The notes below the pieces were generated by a model. It searched no databases. It was given only the letters and a program-made list of their open reading frames with translations, and was not told the origin of the DNA. The position numbers and the translations under genes were made by a program. This document shows positions 1 through 12,508 of a DNA stretch of 53,615 bases, in pieces. Source of the DNA: a virus (lineage: Duplodnaviria > Caudoviricetes). The DNA lies in the IMG/VR virus record IMGVR_UViG_3300006802_000123, positions 1-53,615 of that record; one strand, given 5' to 3'. Position 1 is the first letter of the stretch. Each line of letters opens with the position of its first letter.

Positions 1-3000
1 ATTCTCTTGAGCGTGTGATCCTTCTAGCAGGCCGACGTTTGTTTCATCGCTGCTACTTCCTCCACCACCGGACGTACTGGCTGCAGATGATTTTCTTCTT
101 CTTGTAGATGGGCCTCTTGAAGCGGCACTCATACCTCCACCTCCGCTCATACCTCCACCGCCACCTCCGCTCGTACCTCCAGAAGTAAAGTCTGATGCTT
201 TATCAATTAGTTCCATTATCTTTTGTTTTAATGCTAATCTATCTAAACGTTCAAACTCTTTATATACGTTATCTGGAATCTTGAAATCTTTTAAATTTTT
301 AACAGATGATGTTAGTTCTTGCCATTTTACGCTAGTCCAAAATTTAAAAAATTTGTCCATATATGTCAGATTTTTATCAAATCTATTTTCATTGATACCA
401 TTATCGTCTACTTCATCAATTCCTTCCATTACACCTTCTACGAAAGTTTCATACGGCCAGTCTGCTATTTTTGAATCAGGTAATGCTATTCCTCCAAGTT
501 TTTTTATTTCAAGTAGAAAATTTGTCATTAATGGTAAATTTTTATTAAATTTTTCTGGATCTGGGTTAAACCCATCTGGGTCACCTACATCTACTATACC
601 ATTCATTATATTGTTTACTAAGTCTTCGTAAGGATAGTCTGCTAATTCTTTTGAGGGTAATCCTATTCCCTCTAACTCTTTAAGACTTCCCATAAATTGT
701 TTTATCAAAGGAATATTAGCATCTATTTTAGTTTTGTCTACATCATCATCATCACTTAGTTCCCTTAAGGCATATATCATTTCTTCTGCTACATTTTCAT
801 AGTCAAAATTTTCAAGAGCTTCTAGATTACTTACACCTCCTAAGTCTTTCAACATAGCAAGAAACGTTTTTGCTGTTTCTATATTAGCCTTTATTGTTTT
901 GTCATCTAATCCTACGTCAAACTCATCTAAACCATAAACTATTTCTTCTGCTACATTTTCGAAATCAAAGTCTTCTGCCTTTGCTATAGAATCCATTCCT
1001 GACAAAGCACTAGTAAATGCTTTAAACATTTCCATAGTGCCTTTAAATTGCTCTACATCTATCTTAGCCCCTTCCGAACCTAAATCAGATAAGAACTTAA
1101 CAAATCCTTTTGCATCAATGTTACCTGTAGCAATTTTCATAGCACCAGATGAAGGTTTCATTCCTTCTAGTTTTGATAAACCTTGTATGTATACAGCAAG
1201 TGCCCCAGTAAATGCGTTAATCTTTTCAGGATCAGCATCTAAACCTGATATACTAGTTACGAATTCTTTGAAACTATCTACTGGTAGAACAATCTTTTTC
1301 TCTTTACCAAAAGCCGCTAATAGTCCGTCTACTATACCAGTCTTTGGCGGCTGGAATCTGTTTAGTGCCTTTATAAACATCTCTAGTGCAGGAGTGTATT
1401 TTTCTATATTTTCTACGCTTATTTGTGCTTTAGATAATTGTTCCATTCCTTTAATAGGGCCACTAAAGTCTACTTTACGGCTAAATACAGATCCTTTAGC
1501 CTTACCTAAAGTTGCCATTGCTTTTGCGTATATTTCTAATGCTTCAGATTTTGCTTTGAAGTCATCAACTTTAATATCTAAATTTGCAAATTCTTTTAAT
1601 TTACCCATAATATCTTTACCACCAAAGAATTTAGTAATTCCTCCCGCTGCTTCACCTAACATATTTCCTATACCGCCGGCTACACCGCCTGCACCAAATA
1701 CCGCTAATCCTGCTCCTAATCCAAGAACACCCTTACCTACAGCCCATAACTTTTCTCCGTCTAGCTCTTCAAACTTCTGTATAGATTTAGCCAAAAGGGG
1801 TAAAGATAGTGATACTACAGCAATAGCAGCAGCAATACCTACACCAAGCAATGTTATAACACCGGCAAATACTCCTGCACCTGCAAGTACTAGGCCAGCC
1901 TGTGGACCACCAAATGCTTTAAAGAAACCTGCTATTCCTTCACCTAGACCTCTACCTAAACCACTCAATCCTGTACCTAAACTGGCTAAACGTCCCATTC
2001 CTCCACTTGCAGCTCCGGGAAGTCCACCACCGCCTCCGCCACCCATAACTGTTCCAGCAACGGTAGATGCTGCGCTAGCTGCACCACCTTTAAACATTGA
2101 AGCCACTTTATAAGCAACGAAAGCAGCAGTTAAAACGCCTGTAGCGATTGTTAACGCATCTAGGGCTTTCTTATGAGTTGATAAACTCTCAACCATACTT
2201 TCCATTCCCTTTCGGAATTTAATTTCTGTTTCCTGTCTGCTTGCTTCTGCGTCTGCTATAGCACTGGTGCCTGCTTCTGTTGCTCTATCTCTGGCTTCTT
2301 GGGCCTCTTTCATTGCCTCTACTTCATCTATACCTCCGCGTTTTGCTTGAGTTGTGTCAAAACCCGCATCTTTTAATCCTTGTACACCCATAGCTTGCAT
2401 TACTACAGGACCAAGTTCACGAATTCCCGCCATCGCACCTTCTTTTAGAGCCTGAGAAGTTTCGGCTGCGCGTAATTGTGCTGTCTTTGTTTCTGCATCT
2501 AGGATAGCTTTGCGTTCTTCTTCTGATCCTGCTGCTGCTATTTTCTTAGCAGATTCTGCGGTATCTTTAGTTAATTTTTCTGCCAATTGTGCAGCATCTT
2601 TGCCACCTCTTTCAATCATCATCATTGCTTTAGCAGAATTTTCATCTATAGCCGCGCCACCTGTATTCATAAGTGTGATATAGCCTGCTTTCATTTCATC
2701 AGACATACCAATTGTTGCTGCTGCTATTTCTGCTGATCTTACTTGTTCAGCAGCTGTCATTTCTGCTGCTTGTTTCCTCAATTTAGCCGCTTGTTCCTCA
2801 TCACCCCTAGCTGCCGCTTCTTTAGCCTTTTTCTCTAATTCTGCAGCCTCTGCCATAACACCAGCCGATCGTAATTGTTCAGTTTCTAACGCAGCCTGTG
2901 CTTCCATGGATCTTTGGGCTTCTTCTGCACTTTTACCTGTGATTTCTGACAATATCATCAAATCTTTTACATATTGTCTGCTTATAGACGCTTGAAGACC

Positions 3001-3762
3001 ACTTTCAACATTCATTTTATTGAACATCTGTCCGGTGGCTGCTACTGTCTTAGCGTAACCGGCTTGCATTTCCATTAACTCTTCGAAACCAATACCTAAT
3101 CTACTAAACTCTGCTCGTTGTTTCTCGGTGACCTTAGTCATCTTCATGAATGATTCACCGGCTGAATCAGCACCACCTAAGAATACACTGAAAGATCCAC
3201 TCATACCCTTCATAGTAGAGTTTAGTTTGTCCATGTTATGGTAAGTGAATCCGGCTTCTTTAGCCAATGCTTTCATCTGTTCGCCAGTAGCACCCATACC
3301 AGCACCAGACTTAAATGTAGCATCTCTCAATGAAACTACTGCGTCACGATATATGTTGACTTCTTTTTGTAATGCACCCAATGCTTGTATACCAACCCCA
3401 AGCACTTTGCCCATAAGACCAAATTGTGATACTATTCCTGATGCACCGTCAGTAGCAGCATCTATAGCAGCATTGTATTTTTTGAAACTTTTCTCAGTGC
3501 TTTCTAGGGCATTAATAACATTTTGAGTAGTTCTGATTGTAGTATTCGCAAGTTCATTTTTTACTCTGTCTTTGACTGCTTGTGCTTCTGCTGCTTTTCT
3601 TTCTGCTTCTGCAACCAAACTACCGGCTGCGCTGACTTCTTGTAAACCATCAGCGGCTGCTAGTCCAGTATCACCTAATCGTCTTAAACGTTCTTCAAGA
3701 GCGTTTATTTGTTCTTGCAATTGTTCAGTATTGAGTACGTTTTCGTCATTACCGCCTAGCAT
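1..3762 (-). CDS. Tape-measure-like tail protein, >1250 aa, 3' end runs off the window
   Basis: Absent from the ORF track, probably because it has no stop inside the window. The minus frame was open wherever I spot-checked it, from ATG 3762 (AAGGA upstream; alternative in-frame ATG at 3771) to position 1. It starts MLGGNDENVLNTEQLQEQINALEERLRRL, is Ala/Gln/Lys-rich and helical, has a hydrophobic Gly/Ala middle segment and ~54-aa repeats, and lies next to a tail chaperone-like gene. Confidence 0.75.
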   Translation of the reverse strand, partial: MLGGNDENVLNTEQLQEQINALEERLRRLGDTGLAAADGLQEVSAAGSLVAEAERKAAEAQAVKDRVKNELANTTIRTTQNVINALESTEKSFKKYNAAIDAATDGASGIVSQFGLMGKVLGVGIQALGALQKEVNIYRDAVVSLRDATFKSGAGMGATGEQMKALAKEAGFTYHNMDKLNSTMKGMSGSFSVFLGGADSAGESFMKMTKVTEKQRAEFSRLGIGFEELMEMQAGYAKTVAATGQMFNKMNVESGLQASISRQYVKDLMILSEITGKSAEEAQRSMEAQAALETEQLRSAGVMAEAAELEKKAKEAAARGDEEQAAKLRKQAAEMTAAEQVRSAEIAAATIGMSDEMKAGYITLMNTGGAAIDENSAKAMMMIERGGKDAAQLAEKLTKDTAESAKKIAAAGSEEERKAILDAETKTAQLRAAETSQALKEGAMAGIRELGPVVMQAMGVQGLKDAGFDTTQAKRGGIDEVEAMKEAQEARDRATEAGTSAIADAEASRQETEIKFRKGMESMVESLSTHKKALDALTIATGVLTAAFVAYKVASMFKGGAASAASTVAGTVMGGGGGGGLPGAASGGMGRLASLGTGLSGLGRGLGEGIAGFFKAFGGPQAGLVLAGAGVFAGVITLLGVGIAAAIAVVSLSLPLLAKSIQKFEELDGEKLWAVGKGVLGLGAGLAVFGAGGVAGGIGNMLGEAAGGITKFFGGKDIMGKLKEFANLDIKVDDFKAKSEALEIYAKAMATLGKAKGSVFSRKVDFSGPIKGMEQLSKAQISVENIEKYTPALEMFIKALNRFQPPKTGIVDGLLAAFGKEKKIVLPVDSFKEFVTSISGLDADPEKINAFTGALAVYIQGLSKLEGMKPSSGAMKIATGNIDAKGFVKFLSDLGSEGAKIDVEQFKGTMEMFKAFTSALSGMDSIAKAEDFDFENVAEEIVYGLDEFDVGLDDKTIKANIETAKTFLAMLKDLGGVSNLEALENFDYENVAEEMIYALRELSDDDDVDKTKIDANIPLIKQFMGSLKELEGIGLPSKELADYPYEDLVNNIMNGIVDVGDPDGFNPDPEKFNKNLPLMTNFLLEIKKLGGIALPDSKIADWPYETFVEGVMEGIDEVDDNGINENRFDKNLTYMDKFFKFWTSVKWQELTSSVKNLKDFKIPDNVYKEFERLDRLALKQKIMELIDKASDFTSGGTSGGGGGGMSGGGGMSAASRGPSTRRRKSSAASTSGGGGSSSDETNVGLLEGSHAQEN
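779..960. repeat. 20-bp exact direct repeat ATTTCTTCTGCTACATTTTC (779-798, 941-960), 162 bp (54 codons) apart
   Basis: Read directly; marks an in-frame internal repeat of the tape-measure-like protein (FDxENVAEE). Confidence 0.85.
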
Positions 3763-3804
3763 GTCCGTCATCCTTAAAATTTTGTTTGACTACGGTTTTA
3801 CCCG

Positions 3805-3812
3805 TATAAATA
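3805..3812 (+). promoter_or_regulatory. T4-type late promoter TATAAATA for the 3859 gene
   Basis: Exact T4 gp55 late consensus in the intergenic gap; a gp55-like gene is present in the window. Confidence 0.7.
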
Positions 3813-3817
3813 TAAAG

Positions 3818-3825
3818 TATTTAGT
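3818..3825 (-). promoter_or_regulatory. Late-promoter-like ACTAAATA for the tape-measure-like gene
   Basis: Reverse complement of TATTTAGT; TAAATA core about 55 nt upstream of ATG 3762. Confidence 0.5.
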
Positions 3826-3858
3826 ATTGGAAAAACATACCCTAAAAGAGGACAAACC

Positions 3859-4689
3859 ATGAGCGATAACCCGTTAAAAAGATATTTCCGTAAACCTGCC
3901 GTGTACATTAAACTACCCAGTGGCGGCAAGAGATACACCCCTGATGTATTAACTATGCCAGCATCGGGTGAAATAGCAGTATATCCAATGACTGCTTTAG
4001 ACGAAATTACAGCAAAAACTCCAGACGCTTTGTTCAACGGAGAAGCAATGGTCTCTATCATCAAGAGTTGTGTTCCTGATTTTAAAGACCCATGGAAGAT
4101 CAGTAGTTCTGACTTTGATGCTGTTCTTATAGCGATCAGGTCTGCATCTAATCAAAGCATTTATAAAATAATGTCTAAATGTCCAAACTGTGAGGAAGAG
4201 TCTGAATTTGGAATAGATTTAATTCCTGTGCTATCTCAATTGAAAGAAGCAGATTATGAACAAGATTATCCTTTTAGTGATCTATACATAAGATTTAGAC
4301 CATTAATATACAAAGAAATGAATGATGCTGGTATCAGTCAAGTTACTATTAACAAAGAACTAATGGATCTAGATAAGAACAAAGATTTACCAGACGAGCA
4401 AAAAGCCAAAGGCTTAGAAAAAGCAGTAAGAAAGATTACTGAACACACTATGCGTGTAGTTGCTGGAGCAATTGAATACATACGAACCCCAGAAACTATA
4501 GTTAAAGATAAGAGATTAATATTGGATTTCTTAGTCAATTGCGATAGTAGTTTATATAATGCTGTCAGAGACAAGAGTATTGAATTAAAAAATGCTACGG
4601 AATTAAAACCTGTGACTATAATATGCCCCGACTGCAAGCATTCATATGAACAAGAATATGGATTGAATCTATCAAATTTTTTCGACTAA
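3859..4689 (+). CDS. T4 gp26-like baseplate hub / tail assembly chaperone
   Basis: 276 aa; IKLPSGG, PMTALDE and DFDAVLIAIRSAS motifs; two CxxC pairs (CPNC, CPDC); ends LSNFFD; GAGG Shine-Dalgarno. Confidence 0.75.
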   Translation: MSDNPLKRYFRKPAVYIKLPSGGKRYTPDVLTMPASGEIAVYPMTALDEITAKTPDALFNGEAMVSIIKSCVPDFKDPWKISSSDFDAVLIAIRSASNQSIYKIMSKCPNCEEESEFGIDLIPVLSQLKEADYEQDYPFSDLYIRFRPLIYKEMNDAGISQVTINKELMDLDKNKDLPDEQKAKGLEKAVRKITEHTMRVVAGAIEYIRTPETIVKDKRLILDFLVNCDSSLYNAVRDKSIELKNATELKPVTIICPDCKHSYEQEYGLNLSNFFD

Positions 4690-4726
4690 GGCTTCTTTAT
4701 TCGACACCAGAGTCTATAAAGAAGCT
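4677..4726 (+). promoter_or_regulatory. Programmed -1 ribosomal frameshift signal
   Basis: In-frame slippery heptamer T TTT TTC (4677-4683), 7-nt spacer, then a perfect 10-bp stem GCTTCTTTAT (4691-4700) / ATAAAGAAGC (4716-4725). Confidence 0.75.
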
Positions 4727-4913
4727 ATTTGATCAATTTGATGTAGACGTATCTACTATACGAAAGAATTGTTTACAACTTGCTTGGTATATGAGAGGCA
4801 GTGTGTCCTATGAAGACGTATTAAATATGTCCGATCATGAGAGAACTCTTATATCAGAAATAGTTGAAGCCAATCTAGAAACTACTAAGAAAACTCAAAT
4901 GCCTTTCTTTTAA
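4683..4913 (+). CDS. gp51-like small hub assembly domain, probably expressed as the -1 frameshift extension of the 3859 gene
   Basis: The -1 frame reads RLRLLYSTPESIKKLFDQFDVDVSTIRKNCLQLAWYMRGSVSYEDVLNMSDHERTLISEIVEANLETTKKTQMPFF*. There is no ATG/GTG/TTG between the in-frame stop at 4647 and ATG 4791. Not in the ORF track. Confidence 0.7.
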   Translation, partial: RLRLLYSTPESIKKLFDQFDVDVSTIRKNCLQLAWYMRGSVSYEDVLNMSDHERTLISEIVEANLETTKKTQMPFF

Positions 4914-4919
4914 CTTTAG

Positions 4920-4982
4920 AGTTGTCCTTTGGACAACTAACACCTGCGCTTGCCTCCGGCTTCGCTTGGTGTTGTCTTTTTT
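4920..4982 (+). terminator. Tandem hairpins followed by a T6 tract; possible intrinsic terminator or DNA hairpin element
   Basis: AGTTGTCC-TTT-GGACAACT (4920-4938) and AACACC...GGTGTT (4939-4973), then TTTTTT (4977-4982), just after the stop at 4913. Confidence 0.45.
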
Positions 4983-4997
4983 ATTAAATGTTAAATA

Positions 4998-5333
4998 CTT
5001 GCCGCCTCGGATGTCCATGGTAGTGCTACAAGCACTACCAGAATCAAGACTTGCCTGCCCATCATCCATGCTGTTTATTCCCCGTCACACTAGCCTATTT
5101 GCTGCACAACGCTACCGGTTGCCCTATAAAGTTTATTGGGACTGTAGTTTGAGTATTACTCAAGCAACGCATGTTTTGTATCATCAAAACAGAATAGATA
5201 CAAACTCATTCAGGGTTCGCTAACCTGTCGATTGCCCTGTCGGTATTCCGTGTATCTCTACACGCTGCTCCAGTTCTGCCGGTAACTAGTAGTACTAGAC
5301 TGGCTCAAGGAGAGTCGAGGTGCCCCGACCAAA
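4998..5333. ncRNA. Unrecognised large structured non-coding element (candidate ncRNA)
   Basis: About 48% GC by hand count over 5001-5330, in an AT-rich genome; at least eight stems, including a perfect 10-bp stem (5018-5027/5031-5040), a hairpin with a GAGA tetraloop on the minus strand (5249-5264) and a possible pseudoknot (5172-5204); no credible ORF. Confidence 0.6.
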
Positions 5334-5882
5334 CTAATTTTCAGAAGTTTTTAAATCTATTATATTAGTACTATTGGTGCCACAATATGCTTTAAAGATG
5401 TCTTTGTTGAGCCTAAAAAAGATGTCAAATTCTATAATTATCCAATCGCCGTGTTCTTTAGAAGTGTAATATAAAAAGTGATCAGTAACATAAGTCTTAT
5501 TAGATTGAACTGCTACGAATTTACCTTTCCTGTTAAATTTCATGAATAAAATATTTAAATCACTGGGTTCTGCTACAGTCAGCATTTGTCCTAACCAATC
5601 GTCAAATACTTTACATTCTCCTGCTAGTACTTGATGAAAAGGAAAGTCTTTGTAACTCTTGCATTCAGCATTCATTAAATTGAAACTTTGTCCGGGTACG
5701 ATATCACCCTTGAAACTGCGTATCTGCCCTTCGTGTAATATTTGTGTTCTGCTAGTGTTCTTACCACCTACATAAGCACCTGAGCCTGGAGCCCTGATAA
5801 AACTTTCTTGGTACAAGTCAGAAAGATAATTGGCTATCTCTCTTTCAAAATTGTTTCCTTTTGCTTTCTGTGGACTAGGCAT
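5334..5882 (-). CDS. Holliday junction resolvase, Hjc-like PD-(D/E)xK nuclease
   Basis: KGNNFEREIA N-terminal helix, GDI and AECKSYK catalytic motifs; directly downstream of gp46/gp47. Confidence 0.8.
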   Translation of the reverse strand: MPSPQKAKGNNFEREIANYLSDLYQESFIRAPGSGAYVGGKNTSRTQILHEGQIRSFKGDIVPGQSFNLMNAECKSYKDFPFHQVLAGECKVFDDWLGQMLTVAEPSDLNILFMKFNRKGKFVAVQSNKTYVTDHFLYYTSKEHGDWIIIEFDIFFRLNKDIFKAYCGTNSTNIIDLKTSEN

Positions 5883-5893
5883 ACTGTAATTAG

Positions 5894-5901
5894 TGTTTAT
5901 C
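5894..5901 (-). promoter_or_regulatory. Late-promoter variant GATAAACA upstream of the resolvase
   Basis: One mismatch to the GATAAATA motif used elsewhere in the window; lies in the short intergenic gap. Confidence 0.35.
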
Positions 5902-5917
5902 TTTGTAGCCGAAAAAT

Positions 5918-7681
5918 TTATAATACTTCATTAGAACTACTGTATGAAGTGAAGCCGTTTTCTTTGATCACTCTTAATACACTAGGTACTCTACCCGCTA
6001 ACTCTTCGCGATGAGAAACTAACCAGATACTTTTTTCTCTGCGTCTAGACATGTCTTTCAAGATAGCCATACTGTTTTCTACACCTACAGTATCTAGACC
6101 TGAGTCAATTAATTCATCGATAAAGATAGTATTGATAGGATGATATAAACTTTCCCATACATCTCTAAAAGCAAAACTCAAACCCAGAATCAATCTATTT
6201 CTTTCTCCCCTAGAAAGATTGTCAAAGTCTAACTCGCGACCTAATTCGGTTATCTCTACATTCAAATCATTTTGAAATACTACTTGGTGTGGTAGACCTA
6301 TTCTATCTAAGTAATGAGTTAATCTAGAATTCAAATAACTTAAATTCTGATCAATGATTTTTTTACGTATGAAAGAATCTTTGCTGGTCAACAAGTCAAG
6401 CAAGAACTTTTGATGATCTAATACTCTGTTTAATTTATTAATATTATCAAAACTTATTTCTTGCAGGGCGTTCTTCTCCATTTCTACTATTTGTTCAGAA
6501 TATGGATTAGTTTCATCTTTTCTCAAATCAACTTCTTTGATGAGACTATCTAATTTACTCCTATGATCAAATGCTTCTTGCTCAGTATCATAGAACAGTT
6601 TAGGTAATGGCCCAACCTTACCTATATCATTTTTAGTAGTTTCTAATTGTTGTAATAGAGAAGACCATTCTTCTATATTTTTTACAGATTCTTTTAACGC
6701 TTTTTCTTTATCTTTCAATACGCTTTTATGTTTCTTGTCATGGAATTCTTGACCACAAGCATAACACTTGTTATCTTTCAAAGAAGTCAACTCTTTTTCT
6801 ATCTTTTTAACATTCTTTTCTTCTTTGGCTATATCACTTTGAGTTCTGTCTATAGCCTTATTAAGGTCAGCGATATCTTTCTTACGCTGGTTAAACATTG
6901 CTAGATCCTTGTGACCTTGCAATTCTTTTTGAATGTCTAATTTCTGTAGTTCTTCTAACTCGCTGGTTAGATTTGATACAGTTTCTGTGTGTTTAGTATC
7001 CCAGAGTTTTTGTTTTCTTTTGAGAGCATCAATTTGCTCTACAATTCTTTTGTTTGCTTCTTCTATTGCTTTGATTTTGTATTCTTCTCCGGTAAGTTGA
7101 TCTTTAGTATCTCTTACTAGATTTTTAACGGTTTCTGCTTTTTCAGACAACAGAGTTATACCTAATAACTGTTCAATTACAGTACGCTGTTCTCCCGCGC
7201 TCATTGCTAAAAAGGGAGTGCTATAAGTATTCAACGCTACTATGTGTTTGAACATGTCAGGTGACATGCCTATGGCACGTTCGATTTCTATTTGAGTTTC
7301 TTTATTTTCTCCCTGAGCGTCATTTTGTGATTCTCTTATGTCAGAGTTCACATAGAATTTTAATATGTTTGGTTTTCTACCACGCTCAATCTTATACTCT
7401 ACTCCATTCGCGCTAAACTCTAGCGTGACTAACATACCCTTACCATTTGTTCTATTGATAAGATTATCTTTTCTTATTTGATTTAATGGGGTACCAAACA
7501 AAACATAAGACAAGCCTTGAATCAAAGTAGTTTTACCAGTACCATTTCTAGCACCGTCACCCCCTAGATCAAGGTTCTCTCCTAATATTAGTGTTAGTTC
7601 TTTACTGTCAAAGTTGACTGCTTGGGTTACTGCACCAATAGACAAAAAGTTTCTAAGTGTTAAATTTTTAAGTGTTATCAT
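5918..7681 (-). CDS. gp46: Rad50/SbcC-like recombination ATPase (T4 gp46-like)
   Basis: Walker A GARNGTGKT, coiled coils with zinc hook CYAC, signature LSRGE, Walker B IFIDE, D-loop SGLD, H-loop VSH. Confidence 0.95.
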   Translation of the reverse strand: MITLKNLTLRNFLSIGAVTQAVNFDSKELTLILGENLDLGGDGARNGTGKTTLIQGLSYVLFGTPLNQIRKDNLINRTNGKGMLVTLEFSANGVEYKIERGRKPNILKFYVNSDIRESQNDAQGENKETQIEIERAIGMSPDMFKHIVALNTYSTPFLAMSAGEQRTVIEQLLGITLLSEKAETVKNLVRDTKDQLTGEEYKIKAIEEANKRIVEQIDALKRKQKLWDTKHTETVSNLTSELEELQKLDIQKELQGHKDLAMFNQRKKDIADLNKAIDRTQSDIAKEEKNVKKIEKELTSLKDNKCYACGQEFHDKKHKSVLKDKEKALKESVKNIEEWSSLLQQLETTKNDIGKVGPLPKLFYDTEQEAFDHRSKLDSLIKEVDLRKDETNPYSEQIVEMEKNALQEISFDNINKLNRVLDHQKFLLDLLTSKDSFIRKKIIDQNLSYLNSRLTHYLDRIGLPHQVVFQNDLNVEITELGRELDFDNLSRGERNRLILGLSFAFRDVWESLYHPINTIFIDELIDSGLDTVGVENSMAILKDMSRRREKSIWLVSHREELAGRVPSVLRVIKENGFTSYSSSNEVL

Positions 7682-8820
7682 TCGAATGGATTACCCCCGC
7701 ACATAGCAAAAACGTCTGGTTCTTTGTCAACATATTCTTTTAGTAGTGCTGCATTTTTTTCTAATCTAGGAAAAATATCTCTTCTAAGTTGGTTAACACT
7801 ATCCAACGTTGGATATTTTTTCTTAAAATTTTTCAATATGTTTATGATCGAATACATCCTGACATCTTTATCTTCTTCTACATCATAATAATGATTTTCT
7901 AAGATATCGTCAAATACATCAAATCCCGTTTCTCTAACAATTTTTATTATTCCTTTTGAACCAAATATTATGGGAACTTGATACCAACCAAATGCTTTCC
8001 AAGTTTTTTCTGAGATATGCATCCTATAACAATTAGTTTCTACTACTACGTTTATTAAACATTTATAAAAAAACTCGCTGGGAGGACCATGATGAATATA
8101 TTCTTTGTCTTCTGCTGATATGGGATAGGGAAAAGGAGCCATCATTTTTTTGTAAAAATTAGCGAGGTAACTCGCATGTTTAAATCCAAGAGAAACTACC
8201 GAAATTTCACTGAAATTCATTAATAGTTCTCTAGTGAATGCTGCCTTTTCAATACTTGATCTTCTGGCTAAGGAAAGAAAATACTTGTCACACTCTATAG
8301 TAGAAAAATCTATGTTACTTTTTAATAATTTGTCATGCCATCCCGAGTAATTGACACAATGATTTGAGATTGTTTTTATTTTAAATTGTTTATGTTCTAG
8401 GTGCGGGATCGCTACAGAACCTATAGAAGCAATGAAAAAAGAATTAGTATGATTATATCCTAGAAAATTGACGAATGTTTTAGCATGTTCTAAAAATCCG
8501 GGTACTGTTTCATACAGAACCTTTACTATAATAAATTTTTTCTTTGTTATTTTCTCAGAAAGGTAATCAGCAATGTACCTATTAATCTCTCTCGCATATA
8601 ATGGATGTACTATTAGTCTTCTTCCGCGTACTATGGAATCCATATTACTTAATTCAGGGGATGATTTTATAACTAACTCTTGTACTTCAGGGGTAGGTAA
8701 AAAGTAGTATATTTTTAAGTAATCAATTACAACAATATCTTCACCTATATAGGTGACCCAATCTTTATTTTCCCATAACGTTTGATCAACAGCTGACAGG
8801 TAATCGTCTATCTTAGACAT
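7678..8820 (-). CDS. Hypothetical protein with glycosyltransferase (GT10/fucosyltransferase-like) C-terminal motif
   Basis: INVVVETN...HISEKTWKAF...VPIIFG resembles the GT10 E-N/(T/S)EK/P-I motif series; ATGA overlap with gp46. Confidence 0.5.
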   Translation of the reverse strand: MSKIDDYLSAVDQTLWENKDWVTYIGEDIVVIDYLKIYYFLPTPEVQELVIKSSPELSNMDSIVRGRRLIVHPLYAREINRYIADYLSEKITKKKFIIVKVLYETVPGFLEHAKTFVNFLGYNHTNSFFIASIGSVAIPHLEHKQFKIKTISNHCVNYSGWHDKLLKSNIDFSTIECDKYFLSLARRSSIEKAAFTRELLMNFSEISVVSLGFKHASYLANFYKKMMAPFPYPISAEDKEYIHHGPPSEFFYKCLINVVVETNCYRMHISEKTWKAFGWYQVPIIFGSKGIIKIVRETGFDVFDDILENHYYDVEEDKDVRMYSIINILKNFKKKYPTLDSVNQLRRDIFPRLEKNAALLKEYVDKEPDVFAMCGGNPFE

Positions 8821-8824
8821 AAGT

Positions 8825-9841
8825 TCATAAACCCCTGTAGATATCTAGTAGTATTCTTGGATCATAAAACTGACTTTCAATATTGCTGATTTGATCTATG
8901 ATAATTTGATCCACAGATTCAAACTTCAATTCACCCGGAGCAAGATCCTGAGAGTGCTGTTCCATCTTCATAGGTATTAGTGACATCTCTCTTAGACTGT
9001 ATTCGGGAATCAATGTTTCTTTAATGAAGTTGGCTTCTTCATAAGATATGTCTATATCCAAATGAACTCTAACACTGGCTCGGGAAATTAATAACTTTTT
9101 TGGATCATCTAATATATCACTTAATTTATAAACCCTAAATACTGGTTGGGCGTCCCAAGAATAGTATTCTGGTTCTTCTCCCCAGGCTAGTACCATCATG
9201 CCCCTAGCGTCATCACTAGCATCAGCATAATTGTGAGGGAAACAGTTGCCAATATATCTGATATTTTTTCTTGCTTGTCTTTTATGGAAATGGCCAGAGA
9301 ATACCTGATCAAAGTGAGACAAATGTTTTTCATTGATCTCACCATGATCAGGCATCTCTACCATAGCATTCATGTAGAAGTGGGGAAGTTCAAGATGAGC
9401 AAATAGATACTTGCCCTTTAACTTCTTGAGTTTCTTATACTCTTCTCCAACTAGCCACGGAGCAACTACTACATCACCCTCGACTATCCAGTCGTTAGCG
9501 ATGTGTACGTTTGACAGATGCTTCGCCCACTCTACAGAATGTATATCCCGGCGATCACGATAATAAAGATCATGATTACCTGGAATGAAAAAGACTTGTT
9601 CGAAGTTATCGTTTAGTTTTTCTAAGGCTCTCAAACCAAATTGCAAAGTATGCATGTTGATGCTAGACCTGTGATGATTCCAATCACCCAGAAAGAAGCA
9701 GGTCTCGCAGTTCTCTTGCTTGGCTTTGCTAATGAACCAATCGATGAACTCCGAACAGTCTTGGTTATGTTGTATACTGTTACTCTTCAAACCAAAGTGT
9801 ATGTCAGTACAAACAGCGGCTTTTTTAAACAAGTTGGCCAT
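8825..9841 (-). CDS. gp47: Mre11/SbcD-like recombination nuclease (T4 gp47-like)
   Basis: Calcineurin-like phosphoesterase motifs DIH, LGD, GNHD, AHLE, GHFH; paired with gp46. Confidence 0.95.
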   Translation of the reverse strand: MANLFKKAAVCTDIHFGLKSNSIQHNQDCSEFIDWFISKAKQENCETCFFLGDWNHHRSSINMHTLQFGLRALEKLNDNFEQVFFIPGNHDLYYRDRRDIHSVEWAKHLSNVHIANDWIVEGDVVVAPWLVGEEYKKLKKLKGKYLFAHLELPHFYMNAMVEMPDHGEINEKHLSHFDQVFSGHFHKRQARKNIRYIGNCFPHNYADASDDARGMMVLAWGEEPEYYSWDAQPVFRVYKLSDILDDPKKLLISRASVRVHLDIDISYEEANFIKETLIPEYSLREMSLIPMKMEQHSQDLAPGELKFESVDQIIIDQISNIESQFYDPRILLDIYRGL

Positions 9842-9847
9842 CTAACT

Positions 9848-9876
9848 ATCTTATGTTAATATTTTTGCTTTTGCAA
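9848..9876 (-). promoter_or_regulatory. Sigma70-type promoter TTGCAA-17-TAAGAT for gp47 (probably leaderless)
   Basis: -35 at 9876-9871, -10 at 9853-9848, 17-bp spacer; ATG 6 nt after the -10; no Shine-Dalgarno. Confidence 0.6.
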
Positions 9877-9885
9877 AAGTTATGG

Positions 9886-10773
9886 TCATTCTTCTGTCAA
9901 CTTCATGTCCCTCATCTGCCTAGTGTGCGATGGGTTCAATCCATTCATTTCTAAAATGTCATCTCTGATATTTTGATTTCTCTTTTCTGTGTTCAATACC
10001 CTGCAAAAACTATTAGTGATAGCAGCAGTATAATAAGCGAAAGGGTTGCTAGATTTCGCTTCATTGAAGCGTAACCCAACATATGTTAGTTGAAGTATGG
10101 CGCTGTTACGCATCTCATCATTATATGTATATCCCCTCCAGTTATACTTCATAGCATATTTTTCACATAGCATTATAAACATGCGGGCTAGTTTATCAGT
10201 TAATTGACCATGATCTTTATTAAAATGTCCGGTCTTTACTCCGTTTGTCCAATGAGATTTGCCCACGCAAATTAAAGTATTATTTTCATCTATCTTAAAG
10301 TGCTGGAACGGAGGAAAATTTACCCTAACATGTACCATATCATCAACTTCTTTAGCAGTATCTTTATCGTCTAGTTCATCAAAATCTATCTGGTCAGAGT
10401 CTTCAAATTCTATGATGTCTTGTACTGTTTTCTTTTTTATTACTTTTCTTGGTTGTTTTGGGGCTACTGGAATGTGATCCCAAGTCATGACCCTGAATAC
10501 TAAATCAGTCTTGGGTATATCTTTTGGATCTATCTTAGTGCCAGTCTCTTGACTTAATCTGGCTGCTCTGTTTTCTCGGGCTTGCTTAATAGTATCTCTT
10601 TTAAGACAATATGCTAGACTTTTTTCTAGTTTGGCTTCGGGCATGTCAACTATAAAATCATATTGATGATACTCTGCCCTAGTAAAGCAACAGTAAGAAC
10701 TTTTGCTCAGGTGAATTTCTTTTAATATATCTTTATTGTTTAGATAGTTTACTGGTCTTTTTGCTGTAGACAT
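9886..10773 (-). CDS. gp55: Late transcription sigma factor (T4 gp55-like)
   Basis: NYLNNKDILKEI, NWRGYTYNDEM, FNEAKSSNPFAYYT motifs. Start placed at ATG 10773 (AAGGA Shine-Dalgarno) because the longer start at 10821 falls inside the promoter. Confidence 0.88.
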   Translation of the reverse strand: MSTAKRPVNYLNNKDILKEIHLSKSSYCCFTRAEYHQYDFIVDMPEAKLEKSLAYCLKRDTIKQARENRAARLSQETGTKIDPKDIPKTDLVFRVMTWDHIPVAPKQPRKVIKKKTVQDIIEFEDSDQIDFDELDDKDTAKEVDDMVHVRVNFPPFQHFKIDENNTLICVGKSHWTNGVKTGHFNKDHGQLTDKLARMFIMLCEKYAMKYNWRGYTYNDEMRNSAILQLTYVGLRFNEAKSSNPFAYYTAAITNSFCRVLNTEKRNQNIRDDILEMNGLNPSHTRQMRDMKLTEE

Positions 10774-10800
10774 AAGTTCCTTTATATTATTGTTGCACAA

Positions 10801-10829
10801 ATGATACACACCTGACAGCATAATGTCAA
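10801..10829 (-). promoter_or_regulatory. Sigma70-type promoter TTGACA-17-TATCAT for the gp55-like gene
   Basis: Perfect -35 (10829-10824), 5/6 match at -10 (10806-10801), 17-bp spacer. Confidence 0.8.
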
Positions 10830-10862
10830 GCCTTAGTATCTAAAAACGCCGATTTTAAATAT

Positions 10863-10870
10863 GATAAATA
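10863..10870 (+). promoter_or_regulatory. Late promoter GATAAATA for the baseplate operon
   Basis: The same octamer precedes several structural genes (18052, 18721, 42466, 43244). Confidence 0.7.
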
Positions 10871-10883
10871 TACACAGACATGC

Positions 10884-10891
10884 TATTTATG
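10884..10891 (-). promoter_or_regulatory. Late-promoter-like CATAAATA pointing toward gp55
   Basis: Reverse complement of TATTTATG; matches NATAAATA. Confidence 0.4.
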
Positions 10892-10921
10892 TGTCTTTAA
10901 TTTAGTGAGAGAATAATACAT

Positions 10922-12508
10922 ATGGCTACCTGCAATGAAATATTAAGTAACATGCAACAATTTGATGCTGAAGTGCGCGGTGCCACAGGGATCGTCGAGA
11001 ACCTTTATGACGAGGCTTATGATTTAAAGTTAAAAGTAGACTCCTATGCTACCGGATCCGGAATTTTGCTTTTTAACAATAAAGATGACTTACTTTTTGA
11101 GGCAAAGAATTATTTAAACCAAGTAGAAGTGTATCAAGTATATGATGCAGATTATGAGGCTAAAGGACGAGATTTACTGAGCCAAGCTACAGCAGGTAAT
11201 TGTCAAGCTGCTATTGACTATTATAACAATACTCTTGTACGGGCAATTAATTATCTTGGTGTTAGAATACAATCAACAAAAACACTTTTAGGAAGAATTA
11301 TAGATACAATAAATTCTGCTACGGAACCGGAGCCTCCACCAGTAGCAGACGAGCCGGCGCCCGTGACACCTGAATCAGACCCTGCATTGCAAGATCCAGT
11401 AGCAGATCCGCTAGCACCCGTAATAGACGAACCCCCGCCGGTAACAAGCGAAGAAATAGATCCTAATTTTGACCCCAATGATCCACTGGCACCCGTAATA
11501 GACGAACCCCCGCCGGTCACCGATCAAGAGATAGACCCAAACGCTGACCCAAATGGTTTTGATGATGTATTAGATCCCGAAGGATTAATAGACGAACCTC
11601 CAATCATTGATGAAGATCCAGCATTTTTAGACGGTGATCTAGATACTGACGAAGGATTAAACGAATTTTTAGGAAGCGATGAAGGAGACGAAGGAGGAGG
11701 TGCTGGCGGTGCTAGAGCATCTGGACCCAGCGAAGCGCAAGCAGCAGCATCAGAGGGAGATTGGAGAGTTAGACTTTCTTTAGCAGCCAGCTCGGAATAT
11801 TTGTATAAGGCTGCCGGTTTAACCGGCGATATAATGTCTCCACTAAGGGCAACCAATGGTATTGTTTTTCCTTACCTCCCCACTATTACAGTAAATTATT
11901 CTGCTAACTATAACGAAGAAACTCCTGCTCACGCTAACTATAAAAATCTATTCTATAATAATAGCAACGTGGGCGACGTTACGATCACGGCAGATTTCAC
12001 GGCACAAGATTCAGCAGAAGCATCTTATATGTTAGCGGTAATTCATTTTGGGAGATCAATTACTAAGATGTTTTATGGTCAAGACGAAGCCCCGCCCAAT
12101 GGTGTACCTCCACCGCTAGTGTTTTTGACAGGAGTAGGAGATTTTCATTTCTCTAATCATCCACTAGTTGTGTCGGGATTTCAATTGACTTATCCCAACA
12201 ACGTAGATTATATCAGATGTACACCGGGAGAAAATATTGGACTAGCAGATCGTTCTATCGCAGGTACTATCGAGCAAAGAGCCTTTACTAGATTGAATGG
12301 TGCAGGCAATAGCATCACCCCGGGAGGATTGAGACCGCCACCTAATTTTACGGTAATCAATCAACCTAACTATATACCAACAAAAATGACTATAACATTT
12401 ACTTGCAAGCCAGTAGTATCTAGAAATATCATTAGTAATGAATTTAGTTTACGAGATTATGCCTCGGGTGCTATATACAGTAGACCAGGCAGAGGAGGTA
12501 TCTGGTAA
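10922..12508 (+). CDS. Baseplate tail-tube initiator/cap-like protein (gp48/gp54-like) with N-terminal extension
   Basis: C-terminal tube-like domain (GIVFPYLPTI...ITADFTAQ...PPPLVFL), position just before a gp53/LysM-like gene, acidic Pro-rich linker. Confidence 0.6.
   Translation: MATCNEILSNMQQFDAEVRGATGIVENLYDEAYDLKLKVDSYATGSGILLFNNKDDLLFEAKNYLNQVEVYQVYDADYEAKGRDLLSQATAGNCQAAIDYYNNTLVRAINYLGVRIQSTKTLLGRIIDTINSATEPEPPPVADEPAPVTPESDPALQDPVADPLAPVIDEPPPVTSEEIDPNFDPNDPLAPVIDEPPPVTDQEIDPNADPNGFDDVLDPEGLIDEPPIIDEDPAFLDGDLDTDEGLNEFLGSDEGDEGGGAGGARASGPSEAQAAASEGDWRVRLSLAASSEYLYKAAGLTGDIMSPLRATNGIVFPYLPTITVNYSANYNEETPAHANYKNLFYNNSNVGDVTITADFTAQDSAEASYMLAVIHFGRSITKMFYGQDEAPPNGVPPPLVFLTGVGDFHFSNHPLVVSGFQLTYPNNVDYIRCTPGENIGLADRSIAGTIEQRAFTRLNGAGNSITPGGLRPPPNFTVINQPNYIPTKMTITFTCKPVVSRNIISNEFSLRDYASGAIYSRPGRGGIW
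11405..11606 (+). repeat. 75-bp-period repeat encoding DPLAPVIDEPPPVT..EIDPN.DPN
   Basis: 29-bp exact match at 11414-11442 and 11489-11517; a third degenerate copy near 11586. Confidence 0.9.

What the first reader, a model, noticed from the sequence alone, without database searches (positions are those of the whole stretch)
4914..5333. Unrecognised ~420-nt highly structured non-coding element at a convergent gene junction
Seen: the largest intergenic gap in an otherwise tightly packed window, GC-enriched (about 48% by hand count over 5001-5330, versus 27% in the adjacent 60 coding bases) and largely tiled by stems: 5018-5027/5031-5040 (10 bp, perfect) enclosed by GGATG 5009-5013/CATCC 5063-5067; 5122-5129/5133-5140; 5149-5154/5158-5163; 5172-5178/5185-5191 crossed by TTTGTATC 5175-5182/GATACAAA 5197-5204 (pseudoknot or switch); CAGG(G) at 5211 with two alternative partners (5224-5227, 5235-5239); 5249-5254/5259-5264 with a GAGA GNRA loop on the minus strand; 5278-5304; 5314-5329. 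Knowledge: I see no hallmarks of tRNA, tmRNA, RNase P or group I/II introns. Inference: an undescribed large phage ncRNA or a structured replication-origin/primer RNA. Strand is unresolved: the GNRA loop and one G-U pair favour minus; two G-U pairs and a GTTAAATA late-like motif at 4990-4997 favour plus.
Basis: partly seen in the sequence, partly recalled or inferred. Interest (0 to 1): 0.85.

Follow-up and report, generated by a model that had tools for sequence, protein, structure and literature searches.

The report
New large structured phage RNA
The gap after a phage DNA-cutting enzyme gene encodes a roughly 340-base, intricately folded RNA that is conserved in many uncultured large phages, matches no catalogued RNA family, and has an unknown job.

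Summary
Window 4914-5333 is non-coding and GC-enriched, and it folds better than shuffled controls. It holds two things.

1. Positions 4914-4985 carry two hairpins that look like the terminator of the + strand baseplate-hub gene.
2. Positions 4991-5333, read on the MINUS strand, are a conserved RNA of about 340 nt.

The RNA sits directly after the stop codon of a PD-(D/E)XK endonuclease gene. It was found in 278 related IMG/VR loci, giving 137 distinct sequences including the window's. Context could be scored in 153 loci, and 152 of them had the same neighbours.

Covariation is very strong: 94.7% of cells are paired against 79.8% in shuffles, 50 of 80 pairs change on both sides, and slid controls collapse. 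The fold is a near-perfect four-way junction locked by two covarying pseudoknots, plus an invariant 10-bp hairpin. G-U outnumbers A-C 152 to 27, which fixes the strand. There is no conserved reading frame.

No match was found in Rfam 15, ARAGORN or 50,697 GenBank phage records. The whole genomes of the nearest cultured relatives, PA5oct and Atu_ph07, also lack it.

Function is unknown and no transcript data were available. My best guess, at about 35%, is an RNA partner or regulator of the adjacent nuclease. Short sub-motifs may already sit in a 2023 catalogue whose supplements I could not open.

The parts
4991..5333 (-). Conserved structured RNA. RNA position n corresponds to window 5337-n. 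90 of 346 positions are invariant in 51 sequences.
   Evidence: blastn hit 79 of 80 loci. nhmmer hit 120 of 120 pattern loci and 79 of 80 further loci. Alignment A1.
5313..5330 (-). P1, the 5' hairpin. It starts 0-25 nt after the endonuclease stop codon, or overlaps it.
   Evidence: All 7 pairs change on both sides. Only 68.9% of cells pair in A1, because this variable stem is poorly aligned. Stop-to-motif distance is 9-48 nt in 106 loci.
5268..5312 (-). P2 (CUCC 5309-5312 with GGAG 5268-5271, nearly invariant), enclosing the variable hairpin P2a (5282-5300) and invariant joining bases.
   Evidence: P2 pairs in 100% of cells and 3 of its 4 pairs never vary.
5249..5264 (-). P3 hairpin, with a GAGA loop in the window.
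   Evidence: 5 of 5 pairs change on both sides; 94.0% paired.
5113..5245 (-). Four-way junction core. P4 is 5241-5245/5113-5117, P5 is 5211-5239, P6 is 5171-5209, P7 is 5118-5168. Only 4 linker bases join the four helices.
   Evidence: Helices are 97-100% paired. P5 has 4 of 5 pairs covarying, P6 has 9 of 11, P7 has 3 of 6. Covariance model R1 scores 175.4 bits, E 4.5e-51, and finds a single copy in the window.
5187..5192 (-). Pseudoknot A, 5' strand (loop of P6). It pairs with 5071-5076.
   Evidence: 6 pairs, 5 with changes on both sides, 100% paired. Found blind by a covariation scan.
5071..5076 (-). Pseudoknot A, 3' strand.
   Evidence: As above.
5138..5141 (-). Pseudoknot B, 5' strand (UCCC, inside P7). 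It pairs with GGGA at 5079-5082.
   Evidence: The outer pair is UA 37, CG 10, GC 3, AU 1 in A1, with 94.7% of cells paired. It is 78.7% paired in A2, where gaps are placed differently.
5079..5082 (-). Pseudoknot B, 3' strand.
5083..5111 (-). P8 hairpin.
   Evidence: 7 of 8 pairs change on both sides; 99.2% paired.
5018..5040 (-). P9, a 10-bp hairpin whose sequence is almost invariant. The following UGG is also invariant.
   Evidence: 7 of 10 pairs never vary and 99.4% of cells pair. Used as the search pattern.
5009..5067 (-). Possible P10 (5063-5067 with 5009-5013), enclosing P9 and a variable linker.
   Evidence: 5 bp in the window. Only 3 bp, with one covarying pair, hold in 115 sequences. 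Weak.
4998..5005 (-). Conserved 3' tail, GCGGCAAG. It varies in parallel with the similar segment at about 5050-5060.
   Evidence: Alignment. Identity-type covariation between RNA positions 279 and 332. Unexplained.
4914..4985 (+). Two hairpins followed by a T run: a terminator-like end of the hub gene. This is not part of the conserved RNA core.
   Evidence: Fold. Both hairpins are kept in relatives through changed arm sequences. The tool's strict terminator scan found none.
5334..5882 (-). Upstream gene on the same strand: a phage PD-(D/E)XK endonuclease. PHROGs labels it a RusA-like resolvase.
   Evidence: Pfam PF24608, E 3.8e-24. phrog_244, E 6.9e-18. Upstream of the RNA in 152 of 153 loci.

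Best explanation
SHOWN. Window 4991-5333, read on the minus strand, is one member of a previously uncatalogued family of about 340-nt structured RNAs. The family occurs in a clade of uncultured large myoviruses distantly related to T4. Its fold has three parts:
- a 5' domain (P1-P3);
- a near-perfect four-way junction (P4-P7) tied to the strand after P8 by two pseudoknots;
- a 3' domain with an invariant hairpin (P9).

INFERRED. There is no room for a promoter between the endonuclease stop codon and P1. The RNA is therefore probably made as the 3' end of the transcript of the minus-strand gene series: late sigma factor, SbcD/gp47, an unknown gene, SbcC/gp46, PD-(D/E)XK endonuclease. It may then be processed out of that transcript. 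It acts as a folded RNA, not as DNA, as a peptide or as a mere terminator.

MECHANISM I COMMIT TO (about 35% on its own). It is the RNA partner of the nuclease encoded immediately upstream. It binds that protein through the junction-shaped core and controls or directs its activity or synthesis.

Other readings within the same broad claim are listed as rivals: an unrelated trans-acting RNP or ribozyme (about 30%) and a cis-acting 3' UTR stability or retro-regulation element (about 20%). The confidence figure below refers to the broad claim that this is a new functional structured RNA on the minus strand.
For: Conservation:
- blastn of the element hit 79 of 80 loci fetched through the endonuclease. 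The miss is a contig cut 62 nt after the gene.
- 79 of 80 further loci carry it; the miss is again cut at a contig end.
- There are 137 distinct full-length sequences including the window's, 58-76% identical to the window.

Structure:
- RNAalifold predicted 57 pairs, 33 of them with compensatory changes.
- My 80-pair model on A1 gave 94.7% of cells paired against 79.8% in shuffles, 50 pairs changed on both sides against 40.2, and a covariation score of 0.428 against 0.159. None of 500 shuffles reached any of these values. Slid controls gave 0.044-0.087.
- The core on A2 gave 97.0% against 79.9% and 0.499 against 0.167, with slid controls at 0.050-0.076.
- The top mutual-information pairs are the model's own pairs.

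Strand: 152 G-U cells against 27 A-C cells.

Non-coding: the longest stop-free stretch has a median of 65 aa and is spread over all six frames. Gap-run lengths mod 3 were 2518, 765 and 477 for remainders 1, 2 and 0. There is no codon periodicity.

Not a known family.

Synteny and adjacency.

Gene series upstream.
Against: - There is no transcript evidence of any kind.
- No promoter or tool-scored terminator was found for the minus-strand RNA.
- All carriers belong to one fairly narrow clade (endonuclease 62-100% identical). Constant synteny therefore says little about a functional link, and part of the covariation signal is inherited. The slid controls argue against an artefact.
- G-T wobble is also tolerated in single-stranded DNA, so the strand asymmetry does not by itself prove RNA.
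- PA5oct carries a gene with the same PHROG label (RusA-like resolvase) but no detectable RNA. I did not compare the two proteins, so whether they are homologues is open; if they are, the nuclease family does not need the RNA.
- The partner-of-the-nuclease mechanism rests on adjacency, on junction shape and on analogy only.
Confidence: 0.85

Rival explanations
1. A stand-alone trans-acting RNA, either a ribozyme or the RNA part of an RNP, whose function has nothing to do with the neighbouring nuclease. It would merely ride on the end of that gene series.
For: There are 90 invariant positions of 346, many of them in formally unpaired joining regions. Two pseudoknots and a three-way covarying position (92/207/224) point to a compact tertiary fold. 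Recalled: large ornate RNAs with such features have often been catalytic or RNP cores.
Against: No self-cleaving or other ribozyme family matches. There is no own promoter and no data on processing. The placement right at the stop codon is strictly fixed.
Confidence: 0.3
2. A cis-acting 3' UTR element. It would protect the transcript from 3' exonucleases or mediate retro-regulation of the upstream recombination genes.
For: It lies at the 3' end of a series of same-strand genes, starting 0-25 nt after the stop codon. Recalled: phage lambda controls its int gene through the downstream sib structure.
Against: About 340 nt with pseudoknots and 26% invariant bases is far more than a protective or RNase III hairpin would need.
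Confidence: 0.2
3. A DNA-level element that folds in single-stranded DNA, such as a replication origin, priming site or recombination hotspot.
For: It lies beside the recombination genes SbcCD/gp46-47 and a putative junction nuclease. The strand asymmetry would also fit single-stranded DNA.
Against: Two covarying pseudoknots and many invariant unpaired bases are typical of folded RNA. No direct repeats or iterons were looked for. No skew switch is visible in 3000-8000.
Confidence: 0.05
4. A very divergent member of a known large RNA family (RNase P RNA, group I intron, tmRNA, HEARO/omega RNA, GOLLD, ROOL) that the Rfam models miss.
For: None positive. Covariance models can miss extreme variants.
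Against: There was no hit above E = 0.71 in the window stretch, and only short CRISPR-repeat, miRNA or snoRNA noise there and in five relatives. ARAGORN found nothing. The element follows a complete ORF and faces a convergent gene, so it is not an intron.
Confidence: 0.04
5. A small protein-coding gene, or chance hairpins in a spacer.
For: ORFs of 85 aa (+) and 64 aa (-) exist in the window.
Against: No frame is conserved, most indels are not multiples of three, and there is no codon periodicity. Covariation lies far beyond the shuffles.
Confidence: 0.01

Closest known systems
GOLLD and ROOL RNAs (large ornate RNAs often carried by phages; Rfam families; cryo-EM paper PMC12286853 seen as search listing and abstract start only)
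   Same: Large, multi-pseudoknot, highly conserved non-coding RNAs. They are carried by phages, were found in environmental sequence, and have no known function.
   Different: No sequence or structure match. This RNA is about 340 nt; the sizes of those RNAs are larger by recall. It has a fixed place after a nuclease gene. Nothing is known about oligomer formation.
RNAs tied to an adjacent nuclease or recombinase gene: HEARO/omega RNA of IscB, the TnpB right-end RNA, IS110 bridge RNA (recalled)
   Same: A structured RNA strictly next to a small nuclease gene on the same strand. As with TnpB, it begins at the 3' end of the ORF.
   Different: The neighbour here is a PD-(D/E)XK protein (Pfam PF24608), not a RuvC-type one. 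No transposon ends are seen and there is no Rfam HEARO hit. There is no evidence for a guide segment. The stretch after the tail varies, but it is AT-rich spacer of variable length.
Autogenous RNA operators of T4 (gp32 pseudoknot, gp43 hairpin) and lambda sib retro-regulation (recalled; the gp32 operator is mentioned in PMC10690425, passages read)
   Same: These are phage nucleic-acid enzymes controlled through structured RNA in their own transcript. In sib the element lies 3' of a recombination gene.
   Different: Those elements are short (tens of nucleotides) and mostly lie 5' of the gene. This one is about 340 nt, lies 3' of the gene, and has a complex tertiary fold.
Candidate structured RNAs catalogued from IMG/VR by Fremin, Bhatt and Kyrpides 2023 (PMC10690425; outline, section 2.1 and matched passages read)
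   Same: They used the same data source and the same kind of evidence (covariation in intergenic regions). Pieces of this RNA may be among their 8,495 DNA-virus candidates.
   Different: Their candidates are 29-151 nt long. The text mentions candidates upstream, not downstream, of resolvase and RusA genes. The candidate lists are in supplements that I could not open.

Membership tests
Any of the 4227 Rfam 15 families | cmscan score at or above the family's gathering threshold | tested here: not met
   0 hits in the whole window. At E up to 10 over 4650-5450 there were 4 weak hits, the best at E 0.71 and 17.7 bits against a threshold of 50. Five relatives gave 1 weak hit at E 3.4.
tRNA / tmRNA | ARAGORN detection of a cloverleaf or tRNA-like domain | tested here: not met
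   0 genes in the window.
Group I or II intron | Interrupts a gene, with exon sequence on both sides | tested here: not met
   The upstream ORF is complete (Pfam profile positions 2-157 of 164). Downstream lie terminator hairpins and a convergent gene. There is no intron-family hit.
RNase P RNA | Match to the RNase P covariance models, including the conserved P4 region | tested here: not met
   No hit at E up to 10. I did not compare the conserved P4 sequences separately.
HEARO/omega RNA or TnpB-associated RNA | Adjacent IscB or TnpB (RuvC-type) gene, plus a match to the RNA model | tested here: not met
   The neighbour is PDDEXK_15. No Rfam hit.
GOLLD / ROOL | Match to the Rfam models | tested here: not met
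Intrinsic terminator (for 4914-4985 only) | GC-rich hairpin followed by a U run | tested here: inconclusive
   Two hairpins followed by UGUCUUUUUUAUU on the + strand, kept in relatives. The scan's strict rule found 0.
Protein-coding gene | Conserved open frame, indels in multiples of three, third-position variability | tested here: not met
Conserved structured RNA (generic) | Base pairs kept through compensatory changes, above shuffled and slid controls | tested here: met
Single-strand DNA origin of the rolling-circle type | Orientation-specific fold plus association with a rolling-circle Rep or a primosome system | not tested
   An orientation-specific fold is present. I made no search for Rep genes, and none is among the annotated neighbours.

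The most novel reading that the evidence does not exclude
The RNA and the 182-aa PD-(D/E)XK protein encoded right before it form a ribonucleoprotein in which the RNA directs, gates or scaffolds a DNA nuclease. That would make an RNA-dependent nuclease built on a fold not known to use RNA partners. Alternatively, the RNA is a new class of large ribozyme acting in phage recombination-dependent replication.
Probability: 0.15. Interest if true: 0.95.

Novelty: categorically new. Interest (0 to 1): 0.8.

Why it matters
Large RNAs with several pseudoknots and dozens of invariant bases are rare. By recall, past examples have been ribozymes, RNP cores or guide RNAs.

This one is abundant in uncultured large phages: at least 137 sequence variants, on contigs of up to 367 kb. 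It has a well-determined secondary structure ready for probing or cryo-EM. It also sits in a fixed place at the end of the phage's recombination gene series.

If it works with the neighbouring nuclease, it would open a new type of RNA-protein nuclease system. If not, it adds a new orphan class to the short list of ornate RNAs of unknown function.

I chose 'categorically new' because no known RNA family accommodates it. The broad category, a large orphan phage ncRNA, does have precedents.

Tried and rejected
**Known families.** Rfam was searched at gathering thresholds and at E up to 10 on the window and on five relatives, and gave nothing usable. ARAGORN found nothing.

**GenBank phages.** blastn in 'distant' mode against 50,697 phage records found no match with the window element or with two divergent relatives.

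**Nearest cultured relatives by gp46.** These are PA5oct at 49%, Phosso at 45% and Atu_ph07 at 44% identity.
- Neither nhmmer on the syntenic loci nor model R1 found the RNA. R1 was run on the whole PA5oct and Atu_ph07 genomes and, unfiltered, on the two loci (best 9.1 bits).
- The window control scored 175.4 bits in the same unfiltered run.
- The four ncRNAs reported for PA5oct lie elsewhere in that genome (PMC7318152, matched passages read).

**Cellular genomes.** The hairpin pattern hit 4 contigs out of 596 billion bases. None carries the rest of the RNA. By my own arithmetic about 17 such hits are expected by chance, so I treat them as chance.

**Promoter and terminator scan.** It found 2 promoter-like sites against 3.0 expected, and 0 terminators. 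This was not informative.

**Expression.** No RNA holder was listed by the look-up of sequencing runs. Read laying was not used, because only DNA contigs were on offer.

**First covariation scan.** One search was too permissive and gave 1591 pairs. It was replaced by stricter scans that count only two-sided changes and by mutual information.

**Candidate pairings left open.** The P9 strands could pair with the invariant ACUAC and GGUAG stretches, and the invariant CCAUGG could pair with itself or with CAUGG. These bases do not vary, or do not covary, so nothing could be decided.

**Literature.**
- Searches were made, plus for the frameshift. No paper describing this RNA appeared.
- These were word searches of open-access text only.
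- The supplementary lists of PMC10690425 may hold sub-motifs, and I could not see them.

Full report
**What is at the coordinates**

The interval 4914-5333 lies between two convergent genes.
- On the + strand a baseplate-hub gene (Pfam T4_baseplate, phrog_150) ends at 4689 in frame 0. Its -1 frame stays open to 4913.
- On the - strand a 182-aa phage PD-(D/E)XK endonuclease ends with TAG at 5334-5336. It matches Pfam PF24608 at E 3.8e-24 and phrog_244, which is labelled 'RusA-like resolvase'.

GC is 0.43-0.45 inside the interval against about 0.31-0.36 beside it. Both strands fold better than dinucleotide shuffles: z is -2.88 on + and -3.43 on -. The window has no Rfam hit at gathering thresholds. 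Over 4650-5450 only four noise hits appear at E up to 10. There is no tRNA or tmRNA.

**Relatives**

I used the endonuclease to fetch 80 related viral contigs.
- blastn of the minus-strand element hit 79 of them, 67-78% identical, directly downstream of the gene. The miss is a contig that ends 62 nt after the gene.
All 120 carry the whole element by nhmmer (E 4e-23 to 2e-93; the weakest are cut by contig ends).
- A second walk from a divergent endonuclease gave 80 more loci, of which 79 carry the element. The miss is again cut at a contig end.
- The locus sets overlap in contigs. A fairer count is 137 distinct full-length sequences including the window's, 58-76% identical to the window.
- Carrier contigs reach 367 kb.

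Of 153 loci with at least 700 nt on each side, 152 have the endonuclease upstream on the same strand and the hub gene convergent downstream.

The same pattern hit 4 contigs in 596 billion bases of cellular genomes. None has the rest of the element, and I treat these as chance.

**It is a structured RNA on the minus strand**

RNAalifold on 51 sequences predicted 57 pairs, 33 of them with compensatory changes. A blind scan for two-sided covariation on 115 sequences recovered those helices. It also revealed a long-range helix between the loop of one hairpin and a strand about 115 nt downstream, and a second crossing helix. The highest mutual-information pairs are these same pairs.

| Measure | 80-pair model on A1 | Core on A2 |
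|---|---|---|
| Cells paired | 94.7% vs 79.8% shuffled | 97.0% vs 79.9% shuffled |
| Pairs changed on both sides | 50 vs 40.2 | 34 of 50 |
| Covariation score | 0.428 vs 0.159 | 0.499 vs 0.167 |
| Shuffles reaching these values | 0 of 500 | 0 of 500 |
| Score when partners are slid 1-3 columns | 0.044-0.087 | 0.050-0.076 |

In the model's pairs G-U occurs 152 times and A-C 27 times. The folded strand is therefore the window's minus strand, the strand of the endonuclease gene.

There is no conserved frame. The longest stop-free stretch has a median of 65 aa and falls in any of the six frames. Gap runs are mostly not multiples of three, and variability shows no three-base period.

**Anatomy (RNA position n = window 5337-n)**

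- **5' domain.**
  - P1 (5313-5330) is a covarying hairpin that begins 0-25 nt after the stop codon or overlaps it. The distance from the stop to the invariant CUCCUUGAG is 9-48 nt in 106 loci.
  - P2 is a nearly invariant CUCC/GGAG helix around a variable hairpin.
  - P3 is 5249-5264.
- **Core.**
  - P4 (5241-5245/5113-5117) closes a four-way junction with P5, P6 and P7.
  - The junction has only four linker bases in all, so it is close to a perfect four-way junction.
  - Pseudoknot A joins the P6 loop (5187-5192) to 5071-5076. It has 6 pairs, 5 of them covarying, with 100% of cells paired.
  - Pseudoknot B joins UCCC inside P7 (5138-5141) to GGGA (5079-5082).
  - P8 is 5083-5111.
- **3' domain.** It has a weakly supported P10, then the 10-bp hairpin P9 (5018-5040), whose sequence hardly varies, and a conserved tail GCGGCAAG.
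- **Invariance.** In 51 sequences 90 of 346 positions are invariant, many of them in joining regions.

Three features remain unexplained:
- Positions 92, 207 and 224 covary three ways. This could be a base triple or an alternative partner for 224.
- Positions 279 and 332 vary in parallel rather than in complement.
- The P9 strands are complementary to two invariant single-stranded stretches elsewhere in the RNA.

**What is not part of the RNA**

Positions 4914-4985 form two hairpins followed by a T run on the + strand. This looks like the terminator of the hub gene. Relatives keep both hairpins with different arm sequences, although the strict scan scored none. Between these hairpins and the RNA tail lies an AT-rich spacer of variable length and sequence.

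**Setting**

On the minus strand the genes run in this order:

| Gene | Window coordinates |
|---|---|
| Late sigma factor, gp55-like | 9886-10821 |
| SbcD/gp47 | 8825-9841 |
| 380-aa protein with no PHROG match | 7678-8820 |
| SbcC/gp46 | 5918-7681 |
| PD-(D/E)XK endonuclease | 5334-5882 |
| The RNA | 4991-5333 |

The nearest cultured phages by gp46 are the jumbo phages PA5oct (49%), Phosso (45%) and Atu_ph07 (44%). PA5oct and Atu_ph07 show the same sigma-SbcD-SbcC order. Between gp46 or the resolvase and the hub gene they have 1-2 kb holding only tiny hypothetical ORFs. Neither nhmmer nor the core covariance model R1 finds the RNA there or anywhere else in those two genomes. R1 scores the window at 175.4 bits and finds one copy. 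GenBank phage records hold no blastn match to three family members. The family is therefore so far confined to uncultured phages.

**How it may work**

*Shown:* a conserved, compact fold on the minus strand, in a fixed position at the 3' end of the recombination gene series, with no space for a promoter of its own after the stop codon.

*Inferred:* it is transcribed with the endonuclease gene and may be cut out afterwards.

Beyond that the evidence is indirect. My odds are as follows.
- **About 35%: RNA partner or regulator of the adjacent nuclease.** The RNA abuts that gene in every locus that reaches far enough. Its core is a four-way junction, which is the shape such nucleases recognise in DNA. 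By recall, other structured RNAs glued to nuclease or recombinase genes turned out to be their partners. Against this, the clade is narrow, so synteny is weak evidence. PA5oct also carries a gene with the same PHROG label (RusA-like resolvase) but no detectable RNA; I did not compare the two proteins, so whether it is a true relative is open.
- **About 30%: an unrelated trans-acting RNP or ribozyme.**
- **About 20%: a cis-acting 3' UTR element.**
- **About 5%: a single-stranded DNA element.**
- **About 4%: a divergent known family.**
- **About 1%: a small coding gene or chance hairpins.**
- **Remainder:** something not considered here.

No RNA data could be obtained. That blank is recorded only under things tried.

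**Comparison with the known, and novelty**

The RNA fails every membership test I could run: Rfam, tRNA/tmRNA, intron placement and the omega-RNA context. In kind it resembles the orphan ornate RNAs GOLLD and ROOL. In placement it resembles the RNAs tied to nuclease genes.

A 2023 screen of IMG/VR listed 8,495 DNA-virus candidates of 29-151 nt (PMC10690425, section 2.1 read). Four literature searches found no description of the full RNA.

**Side finding**

In 112 of 113 distinct related loci the C-terminal part of the hub protein lies in the -1 frame relative to the N-terminal part. An invariant GATTTTTTCG sits at the junction, two codons before the frame-0 stop. In the window this is T_TTT_TTC at 4677-4683. 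This looks like a conserved programmed -1 frameshift.

Noticed in passing
window 4677-4689 and 4689-4913 (+): The baseplate-hub gene appears to use a conserved programmed -1 ribosomal frameshift. A slippery T_TTT_TTC sits two codons before the frame-0 stop, and a further 74 aa are open in the -1 frame. The same frame offset and an invariant GATTTTTTCG occur in 112 of 113 distinct related loci. One literature search (listing only) showed no report of this.
   Followed up: partly
window 4914-4985 (+): Two adjacent hairpins followed by a T run are kept in relatives through different arm sequences. This is probably the hub-gene terminator and possibly works in both directions. The tool's strict scan did not score it.
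   Followed up: partly
window 7678-8820 (-): A 380-aa ORF lies between the SbcD/gp47 and SbcC/gp46 genes and has no PHROG match. PA5oct has no gene at that position, and Atu_ph07 has only a small hypothetical ORF there.
   Followed up: no
L206 (PA5oct) 9017-11207; L207 (Atu_ph07) 7776-8884: In the nearest cultured relatives the place between gp46 or the resolvase and the hub gene holds 1-2 kb with only tiny hypothetical ORFs (117-453 nt). There is no homologue of this RNA by nhmmer or covariance model. This could hide an unrelated non-coding element.
   Followed up: partly
window 3800-7700: Near-identical DNA, sharing half or more of the sampled words, is held by runs labelled freshwater, marine and crustacean metagenomes. 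These come from 4 studies, one of which may be the source of the window.
   Followed up: no
window 5309-5312 with 5268-5271 (-): The nearly invariant P2 helix pairs CUCC (within CUCCUUGAG) with GGAG. By recall this resembles an anti-Shine-Dalgarno / Shine-Dalgarno pair. No start codon follows consistently.
   Followed up: no
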